IMG/VR virus record: IMGVR_UViG_2541047951_000008
DNA from: a virus
Taxonomy: Duplodnaviria; Heunggongvirae; Uroviricota; Caudoviricetes
DNA length: 45,106 nucleotides
Reading direction: 5' to 3' (one strand)
The position numbers and the translations under genes were made by a program. Shown here piece after piece: positions 698 to 45,106 of this stretch. The number at the start of each line of letters is the position of its first letter. The stretch's first letter is position 1. The notes below the pieces were generated by a model. It saw nothing but the letters and a program-made list of their open reading frames with translations. It did not search any database and was not told the origin of the DNA.

Positions 698-1060
698 GGG
701 GCTGATTCTGGATTCGACGGGATTTGCGAAACCCAAGGTGCATGCCGAGGGGCGGTTGGCCTCGTAAAAAGCCGCAAAAAATAGTCGCAAACGACGAAAA
801 CTACGCTTTAGCAGCTTAATAACCTGCTTAGAGCCCTCTCTCCCTAGCCTCCGCTCTTAGGACGGGGATCAAGAGAGGTCAAACCCAAAAGAGATCGCGT
901 GGAAGCCCTGCCTGGGGTTGAAGCGTTAAAACTTAATCAGGCTAGTTTGTTAGTGGCGTGTCCGTCCGCAGCTGGCAAGCGAATGTAAAGACTGACTAAG
1001 CATGTAGTACCGAGGATGTAGGAATTTCGGACGCGGGTTCAACTCCCGCCAGCTCCACCA
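698..1060 (+). ncRNA. ssrA: tmRNA (transfer-messenger RNA, 363 nt)
   Basis: Begins GGGGCTGATTCTGGATTCGACGGG and ends GGTTCAACTCCCGCCAGCTCCACCA (tRNA-like acceptor/T-arm with CCA); internal tag reading frame at 787-819 GCAAACGACGAAAACTACGCTTTAGCAGCTTAA encodes ANDENYALAA-stop, the E. coli tag peptide. Confidence 0.95.
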
Positions 1061-1188
1061 ATCATGATTGGACGGTGTAAGGACAACACCAAGAAAAACA
1101 GGAAGTTAGCAGTCTCAGCAGGACACCGACCAGACGGTGAGGAGACAAAAAAGGATACGCAAAGGAGCCGCGGCTCCCGAGTGACTTG

Positions 1189-1216
1189 AAAGCCCACAGA
1201 TGTGGGCTTTTTTTCG
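1189..1216 (+). terminator. Rho-independent terminator-like hairpin downstream of ssrA
   Basis: AAAGCCCACA-GAT-TGTGGGCTTT stem-loop followed by a T-run (TTTTTTTCGTTT). Confidence 0.45.
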
Positions 1217-1952
1217 TTTCATCTGCATAAATGGCTATACATCAGCCGCCACACACGTAGCAACAGCTTTAATTGCTTTACCAGCTTCTCTATATCTTAC
1301 TTAGCATATATATCTTTATGTCATAACTAAAAGTTAGGTAACTCATTGATTTAGGTAGTACCGAAAATGGGGACGCCCCTACGATCTTAGCATTACGAAT
1401 TATAAGAATTCGCTTCTAATTCAATGCATTACCCCATCAACACTGCGCTCACACGTCCCACTACATCAAAACATGTAAAGCCTTGCAAGCCATTGTGAGG
1501 CCTTATGTGTCTCAGTTTTGTCCCACTACGACCTGCATAACCAATAAAAAGATAGACGTGATGTCAAACGACGCAGCAGCCTTCTTTTCTTTCACAACTT
1601 CCCCATCCCCAGCATGCATACCTTTCTGCCATAACCGTAGTGAATGTCTGTTATGAGCTGTGAGTTCAACGGGTCAATGCAACGCTATCCTTAATCAAGG
1701 GAAGTCGGTCATCAGTTTGAGGGCTTCAGATGGAAACCTCGAACAAACCCGAGCCCCTACGGCAAATAAAAGAATAAAACTCTGAAAATTTTTGTTTTGT
1801 TGTACAATATTTGTATACCAAGGGAATCTAGCTTTAGATAGTTAAAAAAAATTGACACACTTTGAAATAATATTGTAGATTTATTGTTAAATATTAAATA
1901 AGTACACGTTGCTTCTGTATCAAACCATCAAAAATGTGATCGGAGGGGCTGT

Positions 1953-3995
1953 ATGAGTATTCTCAAGAAAGGAATTATGGAAGATCAACGTTTATTGGCA
2001 TCTGCAGCTCTTTTTCGTCAATTACATGAAAATAAGAAAGATATATACGATGTTTTAGCTCAGTTCCTATGTTCAACTATAGTCATACATCAGTTATGGG
2101 AGTTCGACGTAACTAAGTGCTCTCAGGAACTAAATTCTGACTATGGATTTGATATACCTGAAGCTGTAGTGAAATCATGTCTAAAAAACAGACTCAAGAA
2201 AATAGGTTTGTTGGAATTTAAAAATGGCAAATATTATGTTACTGAAAAATTTGATAGAAACAATAATCTAAAAGCAAGTTACGAGCAAGTAAAGGAAGAA
2301 CAAGACTATATAAAAAACTTGCTCATTCAATTCGTTAAGTCCTTTAGTAAAGAAGAACTTAATCTAGAGCAGATTGAAGAGCTATTATCAGATTTTTATT
2401 CATATTTTATTCATGACAGAAAGCAGAGTGAGAACTCCGTAGTTATCAGTCAGTTCATCATTCAGAATTCAAAAGACCCTCTGTTCACCGATAAGTTAAA
2501 CAAGGTTGAAGAAGGACTAATTCTTTACGGTGGGATCTGTTATAACTCAGACTTAGTGAATGCTGAGCCATGGAGGAATGATTTTCAAATAGTTCTTGAT
2601 ACGGAATTATTATTTGATGCTGTAGGATTAAATGGCGATATTCATTATCGTATGTTTGAAGAATTTCTATTATTAGTCAAGGGGTTACGAGACCGCTCAG
2701 GAAATAAATCAAAAATAGAATTAAAGTACTTTGAAGAAACACAAAGCGAAGTTGAAAGTTACTTTTATGCAGCAGAAAAGATTTTCGAGCGTAATCAACA
2801 TCCAGACCCATCTAAGACTGGAATGATCAATCTACTACAAAGCTGTTCTACAAAATCAGACATCACAATAAAAAAAATAGAGTTTTTTGAAAAACTAGGA
2901 AAAATGAAAATTTCTCTTGATGCTAACACTGATTATTACGATAAGCCGGAGTATAATATTGAAAGCACCTCTACACTTGATAAACTAAAAAGAGAATTCC
3001 CAGATTATGAATTGGATAAAATTGCTGATACTTTAAAAATTTTCACAAAGATAAATTACAAAAGAAAAGGAAGAAGCAATATAAAGTTAGAGCAAACTGG
3101 AGCCCTACTCATCACGGGTAAAAATATAACCAAATCCCTATCACATTACTTTTCTACTCAAGGAGAAAGAACAATACCATTCGCAGCCACTTTAGACTAT
3201 ATAACTGAGAGATTATGGTTTAAGTCTCATAAGGGGTTTGCTAATGGAGTGAAATTACCTACGACTTTTGATGTAGTTGCTAGAGCACAAGTTATTCTTT
3301 CTACACAGGTGGCAGCAAAAGTCGCTAATGTATACAAAGATATGAAAGGTTCTGTCGCGAGTGGAGCCATGTCAAAAGAGACTGCAGCCAACTTGGTTAT
3401 AGAGTTGAGAAGCAAAAATTTACAGCCGGAGGGATTTGTACCGGATCTGGTTGAGGATATCATGAGTTTTATGGATGAAGATGTAATAGAAAATGCACTT
3501 AGGACAAAATCTTTACTCGAAATTCGGGCTAAGCAAGGTATCGAAAGTGAAAAACAAGTTGAGGTTCTTCAGAAAAAACTTGAAGAAATAAGTGCAGACA
3601 AAAATGAACTTGTCATCAAATCGAATCTAGAAAAAGCTGCCACTATAACTGAAGCCCAGGCCTTGGTTAGAAATGTAATAATTCAGACACGAATCCGTGA
3701 GGGTGCAAAATTAAAAAGAAATGCCAAATTAAAATATAAACTCATTCGTTCTGTTTATTTTATGTTATTAGTAACCATACCTGTTTCATTTATTGCGTAT
3801 TTTAATGTCCCGTCGGACACGGTGGTTAGCGTCGCTTCATTAATATCAGGCGTTATTCCTTTGTTCTTCGTTGCTGCCATGTTTAAACCGATAGAAAAAT
3901 TAACTTCTCGGATTGTTATAACGGGGTTCAAAAGAAAAATCAAAAAAAGAAATGAAGTTCATTCTGTTGATAATCTTCTTCTCACTATGCATTAA
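1953..3995 (+). CDS. Hypothetical 680-aa protein: large soluble N-terminal region, coiled-coil-like segment, two predicted C-terminal transmembrane helices; AT-rich cargo gene
   Basis: Long ORF with GGAGG Shine-Dalgarno 6 nt upstream of ATG (cggaggggctgtATG); visibly AT-rich codon usage unlike flanking phage genes; C-terminus LIRSVYFMLLVTIPVSFIAYFNV ... VVSVASLISGVIPLFFVAAMF hydrophobic; no family recognised by eye. Confidence 0.6.
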   Translation: MSILKKGIMEDQRLLASAALFRQLHENKKDIYDVLAQFLCSTIVIHQLWEFDVTKCSQELNSDYGFDIPEAVVKSCLKNRLKKIGLLEFKNGKYYVTEKFDRNNNLKASYEQVKEEQDYIKNLLIQFVKSFSKEELNLEQIEELLSDFYSYFIHDRKQSENSVVISQFIIQNSKDPLFTDKLNKVEEGLILYGGICYNSDLVNAEPWRNDFQIVLDTELLFDAVGLNGDIHYRMFEEFLLLVKGLRDRSGNKSKIELKYFEETQSEVESYFYAAEKIFERNQHPDPSKTGMINLLQSCSTKSDITIKKIEFFEKLGKMKISLDANTDYYDKPEYNIESTSTLDKLKREFPDYELDKIADTLKIFTKINYKRKGRSNIKLEQTGALLITGKNITKSLSHYFSTQGERTIPFAATLDYITERLWFKSHKGFANGVKLPTTFDVVARAQVILSTQVAAKVANVYKDMKGSVASGAMSKETAANLVIELRSKNLQPEGFVPDLVEDIMSFMDEDVIENALRTKSLLEIRAKQGIESEKQVEVLQKKLEEISADKNELVIKSNLEKAATITEAQALVRNVIIQTRIREGAKLKRNAKLKYKLIRSVYFMLLVTIPVSFIAYFNVPSDTVVSVASLISGVIPLFFVAAMFKPIEKLTSRIVITGFKRKIKKRNEVHSVDNLLLTMH

Positions 3996-4341
3996 ATTAT
4001 TGGATTTATGATTTTATGCTAAGGGAGAGGGGCTCCCTTTCAGTAAACTAAACAATCAATTTGCACATTATGCATCGCTTTGTACCCTATTAATTCATAT
4101 CAAATAGTCCAAGTAACTCGACATCAATGATAGAAATAAAAAACTACCGTTTCTGGCACATAGCAGCCCTAGAAATAGTGGCGTGCAGTTATAGATGGTC
4201 GGAAGGAGGTGGTGCAAATTCTCTCATACAAAAAATACGTAAAATCGATAACGGCTGGAAATCATTCAATACTCGCACTATCGGAAGTTCACCAGCCAGC
4301 CGCAGTATTCTGCCATGACAAGTTGCTGCGGCTTTTTATGT

Positions 4342-4629
4342 TTAACGGATAAACAGCCAGACCAGCAGACACGCCACTACCGGCACAGCAAAATCCATCA
4401 GGCTTGCCACATCCCACGCGCGCGGATCAAAACCGCCCCACCACGGCATATTCATACGCTTGCCATGCCCGAACATTTCAATCCAGCGATATTCTGCCTG
4501 GGTATGTTCACGCGCAATGAAGAACGTACAACCGGCTATCGCTCCGTAAGCCCAGTTTCCGGTAAAAAGACCAACCAGTATCTGCGCAGCCACAGCACAA
4601 AGTGCATGAAGTAAGGGGCTTATATCCAT
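4342..4629 (-). CDS. Small hydrophobic (membrane) protein, prophage accessory
   Basis: 95-aa ORF preceded on the minus strand by AGGAGG (gctgaaAGGAGGaaataATG); hydrophobic stretches at both ends; same strand and tight spacing with the upstream phage ORF. Confidence 0.55.
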   Translation of the reverse strand: MDISPLLHALCAVAAQILVGLFTGNWAYGAIAGCTFFIAREHTQAEYRWIEMFGHGKRMNMPWWGGFDPRAWDVASLMDFAVPVVACLLVWLFIR

Positions 4630-4641
4630 TATTTCCTCCTT

Positions 4642-4920
4642 TCAGCTCCATTCCCGAAGCGGTGTTTCCAGCTCCACGACATAATCAGAGAATACAGAAA
4701 CATCAAACAAGTCATCAAGAATGCGAATGTTGACAAAATAACCATCATTCCGGATACAGACAGGTTCTCCCTCTTCTGTTACCCCTGTTTCTGTGTAGGT
4801 GAAACCAATTTCATCAACTAACAGTTTATTCTGGAGGTCTTCATCTTCCGCCCAGCCAAGAGATGACAGGAAGGCCTTAAACTGCAGTTTGTCATGAAAC
4901 TTCAAAGTTAAATCTTTCAT
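4642..4920 (-). CDS. Hypothetical acidic protein downstream of the tail fibre gene
   Basis: 92-aa ORF whose start overlaps the tail fibre stop (4917-4920), suggesting co-translation; function not recognised. Confidence 0.5.
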   Translation of the reverse strand: MKDLTLKFHDKLQFKAFLSSLGWAEDEDLQNKLLVDEIGFTYTETGVTEEGEPVCIRNDGYFVNIRILDDLFDVSVFSDYVVELETPLREWS

Positions 4921-11470: not shown

Positions 11471-12118
11471 TCAGCGACCAATCACCACAACCTGACCACC
11501 ATCCCCTTCGTCTGCCGTGCTGATCTCCTGAGAAACCACCCGCGACCCCACACGCATTTCACCGTACAGAACAGGCAGAACATTGCCCTGAGCAACCATG
11601 TTATCCAGTGAGGAAAAATAGGTGTTCTGTTTGCCGTTATCTGTACTGGCTGCCGTGGACGTCCTGGCTTTCGGTGCCAGCATCTGCGCCACACCGCCCA
11701 GGATCATACTGGCCCCTGCCGCATACATGCCCGATACAGCCGCGGCACCCAGCCAGCCCACAGGGTTCCACCATGCCACCGCAATCAACGCCGCCCCCAG
11801 CACCACCTGAAATACACCGCCACTTTTAGCTCCCGCCAGACGCGGCACGATATGGATCACGGCACCATTTGCCAGCGGCTCATTAAGACGGGCAGATAAT
11901 TCGGTTTCACCTGCATCACGCCCGGCAATGCGCACCTGATACCAGCCGTCATTCAGTTTCTGACGAAACGCCGGGAGCTGTGTGGCCAGCGCCCGGATGG
12001 CTTCGGCCCCCGTTTTCACACGAAGGTCGATGCGGCGACCAAATCGTTGCAAATCCCCGTAAAGGCAGATGCGTGCCATGCCCGGTGACGCCAGAGGGAG
12101 TGTGTGCGTCGCTGCCAT
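11471..12118 (-). CDS. I: Tail assembly protein I
   Basis: MAATHTLPLASPGMARICLYGDLQRFGRRIDLRVKTGAEAIRALATQLP... and C-terminus ...GQVVVIGR match lambda gpI. Confidence 0.9.
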   Translation of the reverse strand: MAATHTLPLASPGMARICLYGDLQRFGRRIDLRVKTGAEAIRALATQLPAFRQKLNDGWYQVRIAGRDAGETELSARLNEPLANGAVIHIVPRLAGAKSGGVFQVVLGAALIAVAWWNPVGWLGAAAVSGMYAAGASMILGGVAQMLAPKARTSTAASTDNGKQNTYFSSLDNMVAQGNVLPVLYGEMRVGSRVVSQEISTADEGDGGQVVVIGR

Positions 12119-12759
12119 TTGTCGGTATACCTCTCTCGTTTGCTCAGTTGTTCAGGAATATGGTGCAGCAGCTCGCCGTCACCACAGTAAATGGCGGCAT
12201 GATTCGGCACCGATGAACCAAAACAGCACAGCAGCACATCGCCCGGCTGCGCCGCTGACAACGGCACCTGATACAGCCCTGTGGCCTCCAGATTATCCAG
12301 ATAGAGATTCTGACCGTGACGCCACCAGTCATCCCCGCGATGAAAATCCGGCATCTCAATCCCCGCCAGATGATAAGCATCCCGGAACAGCGTGTAACAG
12401 TCCGTCACCCCGTGCTCAAAGCGCCGCCCGGTAAGATGCGGCACACAGCGGAATTTATGAATCTCACCCCGGCAGACCAGCCACCACAGCAAATCACTCT
12501 GCACCTGCAGCCGCCGGTCGGCCTCACTCAGCCAGGGCAGACCACCGGGGTGGCTGTGGACCAGCGCCACAATCTCACCCTGCATCTCTGCCCGCAGCCA
12601 GTCCTCCGGCGACATCCGGAAATACGCCTCCGGCTCACCGGAGATATTCACGCAGGGAAAATATCTTTCCCCCTCCGGCGTTCTCACCACGAAGCCGCAC
12701 GACTCCGCTGGCGCACATCGCCGGGCGTGCGCCAGAATCGCTGATTCTGTCTGTGTCAT
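12016..12759 (-). CDS. K: Tail tip assembly protein K (JAB/MPN + NlpC/P60-like)
   Basis: Lambda gpK-like MTQTESAILAHARRCAPAESCGFVV...; HSHPGG JAMM-like motif; C-terminus ...DLVAASTFV; start chosen at the MTQTES Met (track ORF extends to 12834); 3-prime end overlaps I as in lambda. Confidence 0.85.
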   Translation of the reverse strand: MTQTESAILAHARRCAPAESCGFVVRTPEGERYFPCVNISGEPEAYFRMSPEDWLRAEMQGEIVALVHSHPGGLPWLSEADRRLQVQSDLLWWLVCRGEIHKFRCVPHLTGRRFEHGVTDCYTLFRDAYHLAGIEMPDFHRGDDWWRHGQNLYLDNLEATGLYQVPLSAAQPGDVLLCCFGSSVPNHAAIYCGDGELLHHIPEQLSKRERYTDKWQRRTHSLWRHRAWHASAFTGICNDLVAASTFV

Positions 12760-12763
12760 GGGA

Positions 12764-13462
12764 TTACTGCGAAAGTTTGTTAATGGAAAGGAAGCCGCCA
12801 AAGTTGCCGACGTTATTGCGAAACTTACAACCACTCAGGCATTTGCTGCATTTATCCTTCGTGATATCGGACGTCGGCTGGTCATATTCATCCGCGACAG
12901 CCGGACCGTGATAACCGCACTCATCACCGCGATAGGTCCAGGTGCAGGTATTAGCCAGCATGATGCGCCCCGGAAAAACAGCACCGTCCGTTTCCGTCGG
13001 CGTGGACAGTACAAAAGAGGCACTGACCGCGCTCAGTTCGCTGCACTGCTCGATGCGCCAGCGGCTGATCACCTCCTGCTCCGGATCGGCGTCACTGTTT
13101 CCGTTGACGAAGTTCACCGCATCCAGAAAACGGGCGTAAACCTTACGCCTGACCACCGTTCCGCCGACCAGACTCTGCAGGTCTTCCGCCATCCCGGTGA
13201 CCATTCCGTGCAGGTTAGAAACCGTCAGTGTCGGACGGGCAGCACTGCCCTTGCCGTTCAGTTCAAATCCCGTCCCCTGAATGGGGTATGCCTGATACTG
13301 CCGCCCCTGCCAGGTAACCGGCTCACCTTTTTCGTTCTGCTCATTACAGAAAAAATAACGTTCACCACCGACCTCTGTCAGATCGATTTCCCAGAGCACC
13401 GCCTGGGCTGACTGAGTGAGGCGTGTCGTCTCATGATGTGTTTCCTGTGGAATATCCTGCAT
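12764..13462 (-). CDS. L: Minor tail protein L
   Basis: MQDIPQETHHETTRLTQSAQAVLWEIDLTEVGGERYFFCNE... with C-terminal Cys cluster (CSKCLSGCKF) matching lambda gpL. Confidence 0.9.
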   Translation of the reverse strand: MQDIPQETHHETTRLTQSAQAVLWEIDLTEVGGERYFFCNEQNEKGEPVTWQGRQYQAYPIQGTGFELNGKGSAARPTLTVSNLHGMVTGMAEDLQSLVGGTVVRRKVYARFLDAVNFVNGNSDADPEQEVISRWRIEQCSELSAVSASFVLSTPTETDGAVFPGRIMLANTCTWTYRGDECGYHGPAVADEYDQPTSDITKDKCSKCLSGCKFRNNVGNFGGFLSINKLSQ

Positions 13463-40988: not shown

Positions 40989-41207
40989 GTGGAGAAACAT
41001 ATGCTGAACCTCGATTGCGTTCCAATCTCAACTTATTGCAAAGAAACTGGCGAAACTCCTGAAGCAATAAACAAACGTGTACAGCGCGGTGTTTGGCGTG
41101 AAGGTGTTCAGGTTTTAAAGGTTGAAGGCGTTAAGGAGAGGTGGATTGATCTTAGTGAGGTTGCAAAATGGGCCAGACAAAACTGCTCAAACTACCGCGC
41201 GGCGTAA
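40989..41207 (+). CDS. Excisionase-like small DNA-binding protein
   Basis: 72-aa basic protein directly upstream of and overlapping int; assignment mainly by position and size. Confidence 0.45.
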   Translation: MEKHMLNLDCVPISTYCKETGETPEAINKRVQRGVWREGVQVLKVEGVKERWIDLSEVAKWARQNCSNYRAA

Positions 41208-42334
41208 CAATCAGGAAACACCGCCAGGGCGAAACGATCAATATAACTTTCACCTACAAAGGAGTTAAATGTCGTGAGCCTCTTTCCAATCTGGAAGTAA
41301 CACCAAAGAACATTAAATACGCCGAGCGCACACTCGGCGAAATTCATAATAAGATCGAAAGGGGAACATTCATTTATGCGGAATATTTTCCCCGTTCTGC
41401 TCGTTTGAAAATTTTTGGTAATGCTGCTGCAGGCAAAACGGTAAAAATGTACCTGGACGAATACCTTGAAATCTGCGAAACGAGAAAACTTTCACCCTCT
41501 ACGATTGGTGGTTATAAAAAATGCCGTAGTGCGTTAGCCTCACTCCACATTTGCCCTGCAAGTGAATTAACACCAGCAATCCTGAAAGCGTGGATTCAAA
41601 GCCAGAAAACGACCTTAAAAACAATTCGCAACCAGTTATCTTTCCTGCGGTCAGCACTTGATGAAGCCGTAACCGATGGGGTACTTCAAATTAACCCCGT
41701 ATCGTTGGTAACTGCTTCGCGCTACCAAAGTGATAAGTCAGAAGCAGAAAGCAGCTACGTGGTTGATCCGCTATCACCAGCAGAAGTTGATGCATTACTA
41801 ACAGCAGCCGGAAACAAACAATGGGAGAATCTGTTCCGGTTCGCTATACATACAGGCCTGCGTAGTTCTGAATTATGTGCCCTTCGATGGCGTGATATCG
41901 ACTTTGTTGGAAAAACTGCCCATGTCCAGAGCGCAAGTGTTGTCGGTGTTATCAAAGGAACAAAGACAAAAGCCGGTACTCGTAAAGTTGAACTGACAGA
42001 AGATGCAATGTTGGCGCTGATAAATCAGAAGCCATTTACATTCATGAAGGATGCTACTGTCTTTGAAGATCCAAAGACCAATAAGCCCTGGGCAAGTGCT
42101 GATGCAATCAGGAAAAAAGCATGGGTGCCAACATTGCGAAAAGCAGGTATTCGTTACAGAAATCCATATCAAACCAGGCATACATTCGCCACCCGCCATA
42201 TCAGCCGGGGAGCAAACCTGTTTTGGCTTGCAGCTCAAATGGGGCATAAAGGGCCGGAGATGCTTTTCAGGCACTATGGCTCATATCTGAAGGAATATGA
42301 TGGACAAACAAGCTTGAAGAAGATAACAATATAA
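41168..42334 (+). CDS. int: Tyrosine site-specific integrase
   Basis: 388 aa with N-terminal arm-binding-like region and C-terminal catalytic motifs (HTGLRSSELCALRWRDID ... RHTFATRHISRGANLFWLAAQMGH ... FRHYGSYL with catalytic Tyr). Confidence 0.9.
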   Translation: MGQTKLLKLPRGVTIRKHRQGETINITFTYKGVKCREPLSNLEVTPKNIKYAERTLGEIHNKIERGTFIYAEYFPRSARLKIFGNAAAGKTVKMYLDEYLEICETRKLSPSTIGGYKKCRSALASLHICPASELTPAILKAWIQSQKTTLKTIRNQLSFLRSALDEAVTDGVLQINPVSLVTASRYQSDKSEAESSYVVDPLSPAEVDALLTAAGNKQWENLFRFAIHTGLRSSELCALRWRDIDFVGKTAHVQSASVVGVIKGTKTKAGTRKVELTEDAMLALINQKPFTFMKDATVFEDPKTNKPWASADAIRKKAWVPTLRKAGIRYRNPYQTRHTFATRHISRGANLFWLAAQMGHKGPEMLFRHYGSYLKEYDGQTSLKKITI

Positions 42335-42351
42335 TCCAAGCATGAAACTAT

Positions 42352-42375
42352 TGGCCACAATTTGTGGCCATTTTA
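42352..42375 (+). terminator. Hairpin plus T-run immediately after int
   Basis: TGGCCAC-AATTT-GTGGCCA followed by TTTTA; lies inside the 5-prime extension of the track ORF for the next gene, arguing that gene starts at 42393. Confidence 0.4.
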
Positions 42376-42392
42376 CGGAGCAAGATAGAAAC

Positions 42393-44126
42393 ATGGCAAA
42401 TCAAATTACCAAACTAAAAAATATAAATGTTGTGAAGTTTCGCGGACTGAAAAATATAAACATCGAGTTTGGTTCTCGCCTAACTGTTATTTGTGGTAAA
42501 AATGGCACATCTAAATCCACAATTCTTGGCATTATCGCCCAAATATTTAGCTTTACAAAGGACTTTACCAAAAACCCTGAGACTGATTTAACACAATATA
42601 AAACATTAACAAATGGCAGCTTCAAGTCAGCTTTCAGCGAACATTTTAGGCTTTCAGAACAATTTGATGTTCCTGGTTCAATGGACGTCAAAATTAGTGT
42701 CTATGATGGTGCATCGAACAAACATCTTGAAAAACTAACATTAGGTTTATACAGCTACAGTGACAGAGATAAATCTAGGCCTGTAGTCAGGGGAAATGAT
42801 TCAATACCGGAAAAAAACCAAAGTAGAAACGTTACTCATCCTGTTATTTTTTTAAGCTTAGCACGACTTCTTCCTATTACATTAAGGACTGATTACTCAA
42901 CACGGGATGTTCAGTACATCAATGAAAATTCTGATGAAATCAGAATGATGAGTAACCAACTCTTACTAAAAAACAATGGAAGCTCAGTAACAGCAACAAA
43001 AGGTACTATCGATTCAATGGTTGTCCATGGTGACAATTATGATCACCAATCAGTATCTGTTGGTGAAGATAATGTTGGACAATTAATCCAGGCAATTTTT
43101 TCATTTAAAAGATTGAAGGAAACTTATTCTGATTATCATGGCGGAATATTGTTAATTGATGAAGCCGATGCAGGTCTTTTCCCTGCGGCACAGTTAGAGC
43201 TAATTAATATTCTAACTAAAGCAGCAAAACAATACGATCTGCAAATAATCATGACCTCGCACTCTCCATTAATAATAGAGGATATCTATAATCGTTCAAA
43301 ACAAGATAGTGATAGCTTTAAAACAATATATCTTACAGACACATATGGAGATATTAAAACAAAGAATAATCTTTCATGGACAGATATCCACGCTGATTTA
43401 CATGTTGAAACTGTAAAAATTAATGATGACATTTGTCTTCCAAAGGCAAATGTATATTTTGAAGACAAAGAAGGTTTCGACTTTTTCAAACAATTGATAA
43501 CAGATCGAAAAATAAATAAAATATTAAATCCATTAGGAAATATAAATATTAGCTGCTCTGCCATGCTTGACTTAATGGCAAGAAAAATACCAGAATTTAC
43601 AGCTAAAAGCTTGATCGTCTTAGACGGTGATGTTGTTCACGACAACAGTGCTAATGCAAAAAAAGCCAAAAAAGAAAAAAACTTATGTTTGCTTCCAAGC
43701 ACCTTACCTCCAGACCAAATGATTTTTGAGTTTTTATATAATTTACCACCTGATGATGCATATTGGGAAAATAAAAATAAATTTACAAAAGCTGTTTTTA
43801 TGAAAACAGCTAAAGACATAATTGCAACGCTAAAGATTGGTAACGCTCCGATTGATTTAAAAATCCTTATAGATAATTATAAAAAAGTTAACAAAAACCA
43901 TGGAGGGAGAGTTAGAAAACTGTTTAAAGATTTTGCACATACGACTCAATTTCAGGCCCAAGTCAAAGGAAGAGTTAAAGATAACCCATATCGATATTGG
44001 GTCGAGAAAAATCCTGTTCAATCGGATAGCTTCAAGAATGAACTAATAAAGAGTCTTAAAGTTATTATGATAAGTGGACATGGTGTCGATTCTGCTACCA
44101 TCTCATCATATCTGTCAGATAACTAA
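42393..44126 (+). CDS. OLD-family / GajA-like protein: N-terminal ABC ATPase with C-terminal Toprim-like domain; AT-rich cargo
   Basis: Walker A GKNGTSKST, Walker B ILLIDEADAGLFP, H-loop IIMTSHSPLI; C-terminal region with conserved Glu (VYFEDKEGFDF) and DxD (IVLDGDVV) as in Toprim domains of OLD/GajA nucleases; start taken at MANQITKLKNI. Confidence 0.7.
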   Translation: MANQITKLKNINVVKFRGLKNINIEFGSRLTVICGKNGTSKSTILGIIAQIFSFTKDFTKNPETDLTQYKTLTNGSFKSAFSEHFRLSEQFDVPGSMDVKISVYDGASNKHLEKLTLGLYSYSDRDKSRPVVRGNDSIPEKNQSRNVTHPVIFLSLARLLPITLRTDYSTRDVQYINENSDEIRMMSNQLLLKNNGSSVTATKGTIDSMVVHGDNYDHQSVSVGEDNVGQLIQAIFSFKRLKETYSDYHGGILLIDEADAGLFPAAQLELINILTKAAKQYDLQIIMTSHSPLIIEDIYNRSKQDSDSFKTIYLTDTYGDIKTKNNLSWTDIHADLHVETVKINDDICLPKANVYFEDKEGFDFFKQLITDRKINKILNPLGNINISCSAMLDLMARKIPEFTAKSLIVLDGDVVHDNSANAKKAKKEKNLCLLPSTLPPDQMIFEFLYNLPPDDAYWENKNKFTKAVFMKTAKDIIATLKIGNAPIDLKILIDNYKKVNKNHGGRVRKLFKDFAHTTQFQAQVKGRVKDNPYRYWVEKNPVQSDSFKNELIKSLKVIMISGHGVDSATISSYLSDN

Positions 44127-44136
44127 TTGATTAAAA

Positions 44137-44172
44137 AAGGGTTTTATGTGATGGCCATAAAGCCCTTTTTTT
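44137..44172 (+). terminator. Rho-independent terminator after the ATPase gene
   Basis: AAGGGTTTTATG-loop-CATAAAGCCCTT (one G-U pair) followed by TTTTTTT. Confidence 0.5.
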
Positions 44173-44206
44173 GATATACTTTAGATCTGACATTTAGAGG
44201 TATCAT

Positions 44207-45106
44207 ATGCGTTTTAACACCCCACTTCGCTATCCTGGCGGTAAAGGCAAGCTTGCAAATTTCATGCTTCGGATTATTGAAGAAAATAATCTTTCGCCTA
44301 TACATTATGCCGAACCATATGCTGGGGGTGCTGGTTTAGCATTGAAACTGTTACATCTAAATGCAGCTGAAAAAATCATCCTTAATGATATTAATATTTC
44401 TGTTTATGCTTTTTGGCACAGTGTATTAAATCATGCAGATCAATTATGTTCTTTAATTGAAAGAACAGAAGTTACAATGGATGAATGGTTTAGGCAGAAA
44501 GATATAATTAATAATCCTAAAGACCATGATCTTTTAACAATTGGTTTCTCAACCTTTTTTCTCAATAGAACAAATCGTTCTGGAATATTAAAAGGTGGAG
44601 TAATTGGCGGTAAAAATCAAGAAGGGAAATGGAAGCTTGACGCTCGCTATAATAAGAGTGATTTGATTTCTCGAATCCATAAAATATCAGAAAATCGTCA
44701 CAGAATAGATTTATATAACATGGATGCAATTGATTTCATTAAAAAAATAGTTACTCAATTGCCACAAAACTCATTAACATATTTGGATCCACCTTATTAC
44801 ATAAAAGGTAAAGGTTTATATATCAACCATTATGATCATGATGATCATGTTAGGGTTGCAAAAGTCGTACAGAATAATATTAAAACACCTTGGATTGTTT
44901 CTTACGATAACACTCCTGAGATCCAAGCTATGTATAAGACATCATCATTAGTATATGGAATAAACTACAGTGCTCAAGATCGGTACAAAGGATCTGAGGT
45001 AATGTTCTTCAGTGAACGATTGAAAATCTTTAAAACAGATGATCCAACTAAGGTAAAAGCGCCTGTATTTAAAAGAGGATGTGTTGACGACCACATCCAG
45101 ACATAA
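44207..45106 (+). CDS. Dam-family (D12 / alpha-class) N6-adenine DNA methyltransferase
   Basis: N-terminal RYPGGKGK and motif I EPYAGGAG, C-terminal motif IV YLDPPYY (order I...IV as in Dam/T4 Dam); GAGG RBS; AT-rich; ORF ends at the window edge. Confidence 0.85.
   Translation: MRFNTPLRYPGGKGKLANFMLRIIEENNLSPIHYAEPYAGGAGLALKLLHLNAAEKIILNDINISVYAFWHSVLNHADQLCSLIERTEVTMDEWFRQKDIINNPKDHDLLTIGFSTFFLNRTNRSGILKGGVIGGKNQEGKWKLDARYNKSDLISRIHKISENRHRIDLYNMDAIDFIKKIVTQLPQNSLTYLDPPYYIKGKGLYINHYDHDDHVRVAKVVQNNIKTPWIVSYDNTPEIQAMYKTSSLVYGINYSAQDRYKGSEVMFFSERLKIFKTDDPTKVKAPVFKRGCVDDHIQT

What the first reader, a model, noticed from the sequence alone, without database searches (positions are those of the whole stretch)
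1953..3995. AT-rich orphan 680-aa protein with C-terminal two-helix membrane anchor adjacent to ssrA: candidate single-gene abortive-infection/defence effector
A single large gene with a strong RBS sits alone between ssrA and the prophage tail-fibre end, with composition unlike the neighbouring genes. It has a large soluble N-terminal region, a coiled-coil-like segment and two predicted TM helices at the extreme C-terminus. This layout recalls sensor-plus-membrane-effector abortive-infection proteins. I cannot assign it to any known family from sequence.
Basis: inference. Interest (0 to 1): 0.7.

Follow-up and report, generated by a model that had tools for sequence, protein, structure and literature searches.

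The report
Prophage sensor fused to channel-like membrane module
A lone, AT-rich gene in the cargo slot of an E. coli prophage encodes a member of a large uncharacterised protein family that joins a DNA-binding and nuclease-like head to a membrane module related to the mitochondrial calcium channel, and it is most likely a one-protein anti-phage suicide switch, though nobody has tested this.

The parts
698..1060 (+). ssrA (tmRNA), the prophage integration target
   Evidence: ARAGORN, tag ANDENYALAA; Rfam RF00023, 295.8 bits
1028..1213 (+). attL region: ssrA 3' end plus terminator. It is repeated as attR about 75 bp beyond the window end
   Evidence: 186-bp direct repeat at 89% identity at window-equivalent 45180-45359; terminator-like hairpin at 1188-1211
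1328..1658 (.). Conserved left flank of the prophage cargo slot
   Evidence: 85-88% identical to the flank in E. coli prophages that hold different cargo
1660..4146 (+). AT-rich single-gene cargo cassette
   Evidence: GC 0.34; replaced by an S1 peptidase, an AAA ATPase plus a small ORF, or another hypothetical gene beside a type II R-M system in other prophages; only one ORF longer than 80 aa
1852..1881 (+). Candidate sigma-70 promoter (TTGACA, 18 nt, TAGATT)
   Evidence: 10 of 12 consensus match. Promoter-like sites are not more frequent here than chance, so this is only a candidate
1953..3995 (+). 680-aa ORF (alternative start at 1977)
   Evidence: full-length homologues at 80-88% identity in Citrobacter plasmids, Pectobacterium and Serratia
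1974..2240 (+). aa 8-96: winged-helix domain
2565..3242 (+). aa 205-430: PIN-fold domain with a helical insert
3483..3740 (+). aa 511-596: cytoplasmic stalk helix (coiled-coil-like), continuous with TM1
   Evidence: a single predicted helix 511-616, pLDDT about 80-88
3741..3800 (+). aa 597-616: TM1
   Evidence: Kyte-Doolittle peak 1.95; present in the family
3816..3818 (+). Codon of D622, a conserved acidic residue at the periplasmic mouth of TM2
   Evidence: acidic in 166 of 221 relatives; aligns on or next to the Glu of the MCU WDxxEP filter
3822..3878 (+). aa 624-642: TM2, with a conserved small/polar stripe
   Evidence: Kyte-Doolittle peak 2.33; stripe at 622/626/629/633/636/640 with 105-degree periodicity and power 6.4 times the mean, absent from TM1
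3885..3959 (+). aa 645-669: basic juxtamembrane helix (the CC2 position of MCU)
   Evidence: AF2 helix 645-669; 32% K/R family-wide
4147..4337 (.). Conserved right flank of the cargo slot
   Evidence: 79-85% identical to other prophages, where it abuts a copy of the ssrA 3' end

Best explanation
The gene encodes a single-polypeptide abortive-infection (or superinfection-exclusion) system carried as prophage cargo. The large cytoplasmic head, made of a winged helix and a PIN-fold domain with a conserved acidic pocket, acts as the sensor, probably for a phage nucleic acid or nucleoprotein feature. A roughly 100-residue stalk helix couples the head to a two-TM hairpin that oligomerises into a cation-conducting pore of the MCU type. 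In that pore TM2 lines the channel and a ring of D622 residues faces the periplasm. Opening lets cations run inward down the membrane potential, which depolarises the infected cell and stops phage production. Shown: the architecture, the family conservation, the N-in/C-in topology signals, a genuine MCU pore domain in a subset of family members, the solitary mobile-element cargo context, and the proximity of homologues to known defence genes. Inferred: oligomerisation, ion conduction, gating by the head, the trigger, and any anti-phage effect.
Against: No experiment exists. No PADLOC model matches the protein or any of 70 relatives in a meaningful way. The window protein itself fails the Pfam MCU model. 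Its sub-clade's C-terminal profile does not hit solved MCU channels, and the WDxxEP filter is reduced to a single Asp. The iterative link drifts on composition unless decoys are excluded. The conserved acidic residues in the PIN fold would suit an active nuclease effector equally well. Prophage cargo slots also carry non-defence genes such as OmpT and an acetyltransferase. Some homologue contexts look like ordinary chromosome. My neighbour counts have no matched random control.
Confidence: 0.45

Rival explanations
1. The protein is a membrane-anchored PIN nuclease. The PIN-fold domain is the effector and cleaves phage or host RNA or DNA, guided by the winged helix. The stalk and TM hairpin only tether and oligomerise it at the inner membrane, for example near the site of phage genome entry. 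This would still be a defence function, but without ion conduction.
Against: No PIN sequence model or PDB PIN sequence is detected. The Asp of the classic PIN T-x-D motif is usually absent, since position 390 is K/N/S. A mere anchor would not be expected to keep an acidic mouth residue, a periodic small/polar face on TM2, or a full MCU pore domain in part of the family.
Confidence: 0.22
2. The gene is a non-defence accessory gene of mobile elements. It could be a regulated cation channel, or a membrane-tethered nucleic-acid-binding regulator, that changes host physiology (lysogenic conversion, ion homeostasis) or helps maintain the element in an addiction-like way.
For: The same slot carries OmpT and an acetyltransferase in other prophages. 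The plasmid copy lies beside hok/gef. Several homologues have ordinary chromosomal neighbours. No defence model matches.
Against: The rare, patchy, multi-phylum distribution and the frequent R-M, Gabija and Lamassu neighbours are typical of defence genes. A PIN-plus-winged-helix head is hard to explain for ion homeostasis. No antitoxin-like partner or small RNA is present.
Confidence: 0.15
3. The protein has a phage life-cycle function, such as a holin-like lysis or lysis-timing factor, or a block to DNA entry that serves the prophage itself.
For: A two-TM, N-in/C-in hairpin with a short periplasmic loop resembles class II holins and pinholins (topology; the comparison is from general knowledge). 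The gene is prophage-borne.
Against: The protein is 680 aa with a roughly 590-aa cytoplasmic head. The prophage has its own holin, lysozyme and Rz cassette elsewhere. The gene lies outside the lysis module, is absent from almost all related prophages, and also occurs on plasmids, Tn7-like elements and satellites. Only one of 50,697 phage records holds a relative.
Confidence: 0.05

Closest known systems
Mitochondrial calcium uniporter pore domain (MCU, Pfam PF04678)
   Same: Same order of elements: long coiled-coil helix, TM1, short acidic loop, TM2, second helix. Both termini lie on the electrically negative side and the acidic mouth faces outward. A subset of the family has the literal WDIMEP filter and matches solved MCU channels. 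TM2 carries the conserved small/polar face.
   Different: The window protein itself does not reach the MCU model and keeps only one acidic residue, D622, in the sequence 'PSDTVVS'. It is bacterial, carried on mobile elements, and fused to a roughly 500-aa winged-helix plus PIN head in place of the MCU N-terminal domain. No EMRE or MICU partners are present. Conduction is untested.
VapC-type PIN-domain toxins
   Different: There is no detectable sequence similarity. The domain has a roughly 60-residue helical insert, and the T-x-D Asp is mostly lost. There is no antitoxin gene. The domain is embedded in a membrane protein.
Lambda RexAB abortive infection (from general knowledge)
   Same: Prophage-encoded. 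A cytoplasmic DNA-related sensor is coupled to an inner-membrane ion channel whose opening collapses membrane potential and aborts infection. This is the logic proposed here.
   Different: Rex is two proteins, and RexB has four TM helices. No homology was detected. Here the sensor and the channel-like module are one polypeptide. This is a functional analogy only.
Sensor-coupled membrane effectors of CBASS, Pycsar, type III CRISPR and retrons (e.g. Cap15, PycTM, Cam1, Csx23, CorA, SLATT; from general knowledge)
   Same: A small TM module serves as the killing or arrest effector downstream of a cytoplasmic sensor. The family profile gives a weak CorA hit (E about 0.002) and sporadic weak SLATT-model hits.
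   Different: Those effectors are gated by nucleotide second messengers made by partner enzymes. Here there is no partner gene and no recognisable nucleotide-binding domain. The weak CorA and SLATT hits may reflect composition.

Membership tests
MCU (PF04678) channel domain | Score at or above the Pfam gathering threshold (30.8 bits) | tested here: not met
   The window protein has no Pfam hit at E<=1. Six relatives do reach it, at 30.8-48.7 bits.
MCU (PF04678) channel domain | W-D-x-x-E-P selectivity filter between TM1 and TM2 | tested here: not met
   The window protein has 'NVPSDTVVS'. Only the acidic residue at position 622 is kept (75% acidic family-wide). Eleven relatives have the motif.
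MCU (PF04678) channel domain | CC1-TM1-short loop-TM2-CC2 topology with both termini on the inner side | tested here: met
   AF2 helices 511-616, 624-642 and 645-669; hydropathy; positive-inside charge pattern.
MCU (PF04678) channel domain | Detectable homology of the TM module to bona fide MCU domains | tested here: inconclusive
   hhalign gives 87.7% against 11.6% for the reversed control. Decoy-controlled iteration gives 38.3 against 26.0 bits. However, a direct hmmsearch gives E=1.5, and the sub-clade profile does not hit solved MCU channels.
MCU (PF04678) channel domain | Tetrameric cation-conducting pore | not testable with these tools
   No multimer prediction or electrophysiology was available.
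PIN domain nucleases (VapC-like) | PIN alpha/beta/alpha fold | tested here: met
   [not shown]
PIN domain nucleases (VapC-like) | Match to PIN sequence models or sequences | tested here: not met
   No PIN family in Pfam for the protein, nor among the 25 commonest families for 70 relatives. The central-domain profile has no PDB hit at E<=10. hhalign to the validated Shigella VapC gives probability 0.2%.
PIN domain nucleases (VapC-like) | Four clustered conserved acidic residues, including the T-x-D motif | tested here: inconclusive
   Acidic at 216 (87%), 218 (98%), 262 (87%), 266 (92%), 303 (98%), 323 (79%) and 380 (92%). T/S388 is 99% conserved, but position 390 is K/N/S.
Catalogued anti-phage defence systems (PADLOC-DB 2.0.0) | Match to any defence-protein HMM | tested here: not met
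   No hit at E<=1 for the window protein. Only sporadic weak hits (E>=9e-5, at most 2 members) among 70 relatives.
Class II holins / pinholins | Small protein (under about 150 aa) encoded in the phage lysis cassette | tested here: not met
   The protein is 680 aa. The prophage's holin, lysozyme and Rz genes lie about 25 kb away.

The most novel reading that the evidence does not exclude
This family is a widespread, uncharacterised class of one-protein bacterial immune sensors whose effector is an MCU-type cation channel. Phage infection would open a uniporter-like pore that floods the cell with Ca2+ or other cations. Under this reading the pore domain of the eukaryotic mitochondrial calcium uniporter has close relatives in, or perhaps origins among, prokaryotic conflict systems carried by mobile elements. 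The window protein would represent a derived branch with a simplified single-Asp filter.
Probability: 0.3. Interest if true: 0.85.

Novelty: new variant of a known kind. Interest (0 to 1): 0.64.

Why it matters
If the hypothesis holds, it adds a new effector type, an MCU-like cation channel, and a new sensor head, winged helix plus PIN fold, to the set of single-gene abortive-infection systems. It would also assign a role to a family of more than 2,000 representative sequences that every database calls hypothetical. It would give bacterial MCU-domain proteins their first physiological context. That bears on where the mitochondrial uniporter pore came from, and adds to the list of eukaryotic cell-death or signalling modules with relatives in bacterial immunity. 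In practical terms, the cassette is small (about 2.5 kb, one gene with its own upstream region) and easy to test in E. coli.

Tried and rejected
- Pfam, NCBIfam and PADLOC gave nothing for the protein. PHROGs gave only one marginal hit to a family of unknown function (E 0.001).
- PADLOC and NCBIfam scans of 70 relatives gave only sporadic weak hits.
- Foldseek against the PDB and BFVD gave nothing significant. AFDB50 was unavailable.
- The full-family profiles against PDB sequences gave only weak CorA, Piezo and FEN1 hits. I treat CorA and Piezo as possibly compositional. The FEN1 hit is unexplained.
- A naive iterative search linking the C-termini was rejected, because reversed-sequence decoys entered the profile. 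I redid it with decoys excluded.
- The first hhalign of the whole C-terminal regions aligned only the segment before the coiled coil. I redid it on the TM module with a reversed control.
- The central-domain profile against the PDB, and against a validated VapC sequence, gave no signal.
- A search for attR with a 23-mer and up to 3 mismatches failed because of a 5-nt deletion. BLAST found it.
- The search for related loci with the diverse alignment A2 failed, so I used A1.
- Seven literature searches on uniporter and phage defence, PIN plus TM abortive infection, bacterial MCU homologues and family accession numbers found no description of this family.
- The holin or lysis reading and the chance-ORF reading were considered and rejected, on size, location and strong family conservation.

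Full report
**1. Observation**

The window is E. coli. It is identical to strain MS21324 (NZ_CP082045.1) across smpB, ssrA and a lambdoid prophage. ssrA lies at 698-1060.

The ORF at 1953-3995 (+) encodes 680 aa. GGAGG at 1942-1946 lies 6 nt upstream of the ATG. RefSeq starts the CDS at the second ATG (1977, 672 aa, WP_136676584.1, 'hypothetical protein'), and 86% of relatives have Met at that position, so the true start is open.

The gene's GC is 0.34 (GC3 0.28) against 0.49 for the window. Kyte-Doolittle analysis gives two hydrophobic helices at about 597-616 and 624-642. No other ORF longer than 80 aa and no Rfam family lies in 1660-4146.

Two points are wrong:

- **The protein is not an orphan.** See section 3.
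- **It does not lie between ssrA and the prophage.** Window 1028-1213 (the ssrA 3' end plus its terminator) is repeated at 89% identity at window-equivalent 45180-45359. That is beyond the integrase (41168-42334) and two further genes. The prophage therefore spans about 1033 to 45200, and the gene sits in its att-proximal cargo region.

**2. The slot**

Only 3 of 5,426 complete E. coli genomes hold the gene. The flanks recur at 79-88% identity in other E. coli prophages, around different cargo:

| Flank or cargo | Detail |
|---|---|
| Left flank | window 1328-1658 |
| Right flank | window 4147-4305/4337 |
| Cargo elsewhere | a 321-aa hypothetical protein next to a type II R-M system |
| Cargo elsewhere | an AAA ATPase plus a small ORF |
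| Cargo elsewhere | an S1 peptidase |
| Nearby in a further prophage that matches only the att region | an acetyltransferase, an HTH protein and OmpT |

The AT-rich 2.5-kb stretch is thus a single-gene cassette in a variable accessory slot.

The opposite end of the same prophage, between the integrase and attR, carries two further genes. One is an AAA_15/21/23 ATPase resembling PtuA, AriA and GajA. The other is a D12 methylase that matches PD-Lambda-5_B at E 2e-124. So this prophage also carries defence-type cargo at its other end.

**3. The family**

The word-indexed search found 87 clusters in Gammaproteobacteria, all 'hypothetical' apart from one JGI label, 'rRNA-processing protein FCF1', which is a PIN-domain name. 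The exhaustive profile search found 2,336 representatives at E<=1e-3 and 695 at E<=1e-30. The top 150 are nearly all co-linear proteins of 600-700 aa.

Species-representative genomes place members in Pseudomonadota, Bacteroidota, Firmicutes, Spirochaetes, Chloroflexi, Cloacimonadota, Omnitrophota and Campylobacterota. No source gives any member a name. No Pfam, NCBIfam (June 2026) or PADLOC model covers the conserved 500-residue head.

**4. Structure**

AlphaFold2 with the 87-sequence alignment gave mean pLDDT 83.7 and pTM 0.72. The layout is:

| Residues | Element |
|---|---|
| 8-96 | helix-helix-helix-helix plus a beta-hairpin |
| 105-197 | helices |
| about 205-430 | alpha/beta domain, strands at 211-215, 255-259, 320-322, 384-387 and about 408-412 |
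| 441-510 | helices |
| 511-616 | one long helix, running into TM1 |
| 624-642 | TM2 |
| 645-669 | basic helix |

Family-wide conservation fits a PIN-like acidic pocket:

| Position | Conservation |
|---|---|
| D216-T217 (after beta-1) | 87% acidic; 80% Thr |
| E218 | 98% acidic |
| E262 / E266 (after beta-2) | 87% / 92% acidic |
| D303 | 98% acidic |
| position 323 (after beta-3) | 79% acidic |
| E380 | 92% acidic |
| T/S388 | 99% |

The Asp of the classic T-x-D motif is mostly absent. No sequence-level PIN signal exists.

**5. The membrane module**

Two strong C-terminal hydrophobic segments occur in 190 of 231 relatives, and most of the rest are fragments or have a second segment below my threshold.

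Scanning 70 diverse relatives one by one showed Pfam MCU in 9 of them. Six reach the gathering score (30.8-48.7 bits) over nearly the whole model. Eleven carry WDxxE[PQK] between TM1 and TM2, and P0190 has 'WDIMEPVTY'. A profile of eight such C-termini hits solved human, fungal, nematode and other MCU channels at E 1.5e-10 to 1.3e-7, across CC1-TM1-filter-TM2-CC2. Part of this family therefore carries a genuine MCU pore domain.

For the window protein the link is weaker:

- The direct hmmsearch gives E=1.5.
- Its sub-clade profile does not find MCU. The best hit is TMCO1 at E 0.007.
- Naive iteration drifts, because reversed decoys enter the profile.
- With decoys excluded, the window protein is reached at iteration 3, at 38.3 bits against 26.0 for the best decoy.
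- hhalign of 149 window-type against 25 MCU-type TM modules gives probability 87.7% and E 3.4e-6 over 107 columns. The column-reversed control gives 11.6%.

D622 aligns on, or one residue from, the filter Glu, and that column is acidic in 166 of 221 relatives. TM2, but not TM1, carries a conserved small/polar stripe at positions 622, 626, 629, 633, 636 and 640. Its periodicity is 105 degrees with power 6.4 times the mean. From what I know of MCU structures, TM2 is the pore-lining helix there.

Charges follow the positive-inside rule: 30% K/R before TM1, 8% K/R and 18% D/E in the loop, and 32% K/R after TM2. Both termini are therefore cytoplasmic and the acidic mouth is periplasmic. This is the same orientation relative to the membrane potential as MCU in the mitochondrial inner membrane, again from general knowledge.

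I put the chance that the window protein's module is a diverged MCU-type module at roughly 75%. It fails formal membership.

**6. Context of homologues**

In every locus inspected the gene stands alone:

| Organism | Context |
|---|---|
| Serratia | end of a CP4-57-like island |
| Pectobacterium | between housekeeping genes, near an integrase fragment |
| Pseudomonas fragi | end of a P2-like prophage, after a Dam methylase |
| Aeromonas | Tn7-like cargo with UvrD-like and AbiEi genes |
| Aliiglaciecola | directly beside a P4-type integrase in a satellite-like island, next to a type I R-M system |
| Providencia | directly after the integrase of two different lambdoid prophages |
| a MAG | inside a prophage, beside a cytosine methylase and a DUF4928 protein |
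| Citrobacter | IncF plasmids, beside hok/gef |
| Helicobacter pullorum | first gene of a 57-kb prophage record that carries a putative Mu-type transposase |
| Shewanella, Pseudoalteromonas | uninformative |

I also examined 264 neighbours within 4.5 kb in 30 distant loci. No family recurs in more than 3-4 proteins per batch of 14-16 loci, so there is no conserved partner. The neighbours do include strong matches to type I, IIG and IV restriction systems, GajB (1e-188), LmuA/B/C, PDC-S02, PDC-S24 and DpdF. They also include integrases and phage repressors, mixed with housekeeping genes. I had no matched random control, so I describe this as frequent proximity to defence genes, not as a measured enrichment.

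**7. Mechanism**

The best-supported reading is a one-protein abortive-infection or exclusion system:

- The winged-helix and PIN-fold head senses a phage-derived nucleic acid or nucleoprotein cue.
- The stalk helix transmits the signal.
- The TM hairpins of an oligomer open a cation path, lined by TM2 and with a D622 ring at its mouth.
- Inward cation flow collapses the membrane potential.

The architecture, conservation, topology signals, the MCU relationship of the family, and the context are shown. Oligomerisation, conduction, gating, the trigger and the phenotype are inferred.

The main rival is that the PIN fold is an active nuclease effector and the membrane part is only an anchor. The conserved acidic residues support this rival. 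The conserved pore-type features of TM2, and the genuine MCU domains in relatives, argue against a mere anchor. Other rivals are a non-defence accessory channel or regulator, and a phage lysis or life-cycle role. The lysis role is unlikely given the protein's size, its position outside the lysis cassette, and its presence on plasmids, transposons and satellites.

**8. Comparison with what is known, and novelty**

The proposed logic is that of lambda RexAB and of the sensor-coupled TM effectors of CBASS, Pycsar, type III CRISPR and retrons (from general knowledge). The protein is a member of none of them.

Bacterial MCU-domain sequences have been noted in phylogenies: the legend of the tree in PMC7423614 mentions bacterial sequences. 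I found no functional description of them, and nothing linking the uniporter to phage defence. None of the family's accession numbers appears in any searchable paper.

I therefore rate this as a new variant of a known kind, namely a single-gene sensor plus membrane effector. The domain combination is undescribed, and the possible evolutionary link to the mitochondrial uniporter is notable.

**9. Verdict**

Confidence in the sensor-channel mechanism is 0.45. My confidence in some defence role by any mechanism is higher, about 0.65-0.7. Interest is 0.64.

Noticed in passing
window 42342-45106 (and about 75 bp beyond): Between the prophage integrase (41168-42334) and attR lie two genes. One is a 594-aa AAA_15/21/23 ATPase resembling PtuA, AriA and GajA. 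The other is a D12 adenine methylase matching PD-Lambda-5_B at E 2e-124. This is probably a two-gene defence cargo at the other end of the same prophage.
   Followed up: partly
window 1033-1658 and 4147-4337; loci L002-L005: In other E. coli prophages the slot flanks are circularly permuted relative to this window. The order there is [1328-1658][other cargo][4147-4337][copy of the ssrA 3' end plus terminator, 1033-1215]. The ssrA-like att core sits to the right of the cargo there and to the left here. RefSeq labels window 4234-4308 as a 'capsid protein' fragment. How this rearrangement arose is unexplained.
   Followed up: partly
window 3297-3566 (aa 449-538): The family profiles weakly match the C-terminal part of Sulfolobus FEN1 (2izo_A, E 0.008-0.02). 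The matching region lies just after the PIN-fold domain. FEN1 is itself a PIN-like nuclease, so this could be a faint real signal or chance.
   Followed up: no
[not shown]
   Followed up: no
window 1953 versus 1977: The strong GGAGG serves the ATG at 1953. RefSeq and most homologues start at the Met that corresponds to 1977 (M9, 86% conserved). Residues 1-10 have pLDDT below 50. The true start is unresolved.
   Followed up: partly
window 4342-4920 (- strand): Two small unannotated-function genes lie between the cassette and the tail-fibre gene. One is a 95-aa hydrophobic protein and the other is 92 aa. The first is 94% conserved in other prophage ends.
   Followed up: no
locus L023 (Pseudoalteromonas), 11942-13126: The homologue lies next to two fragments of an EF-Tu gene, upstream of fusA, rpsG and rpsL. 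This suggests an insertion that disrupted or duplicated tuf.
   Followed up: no
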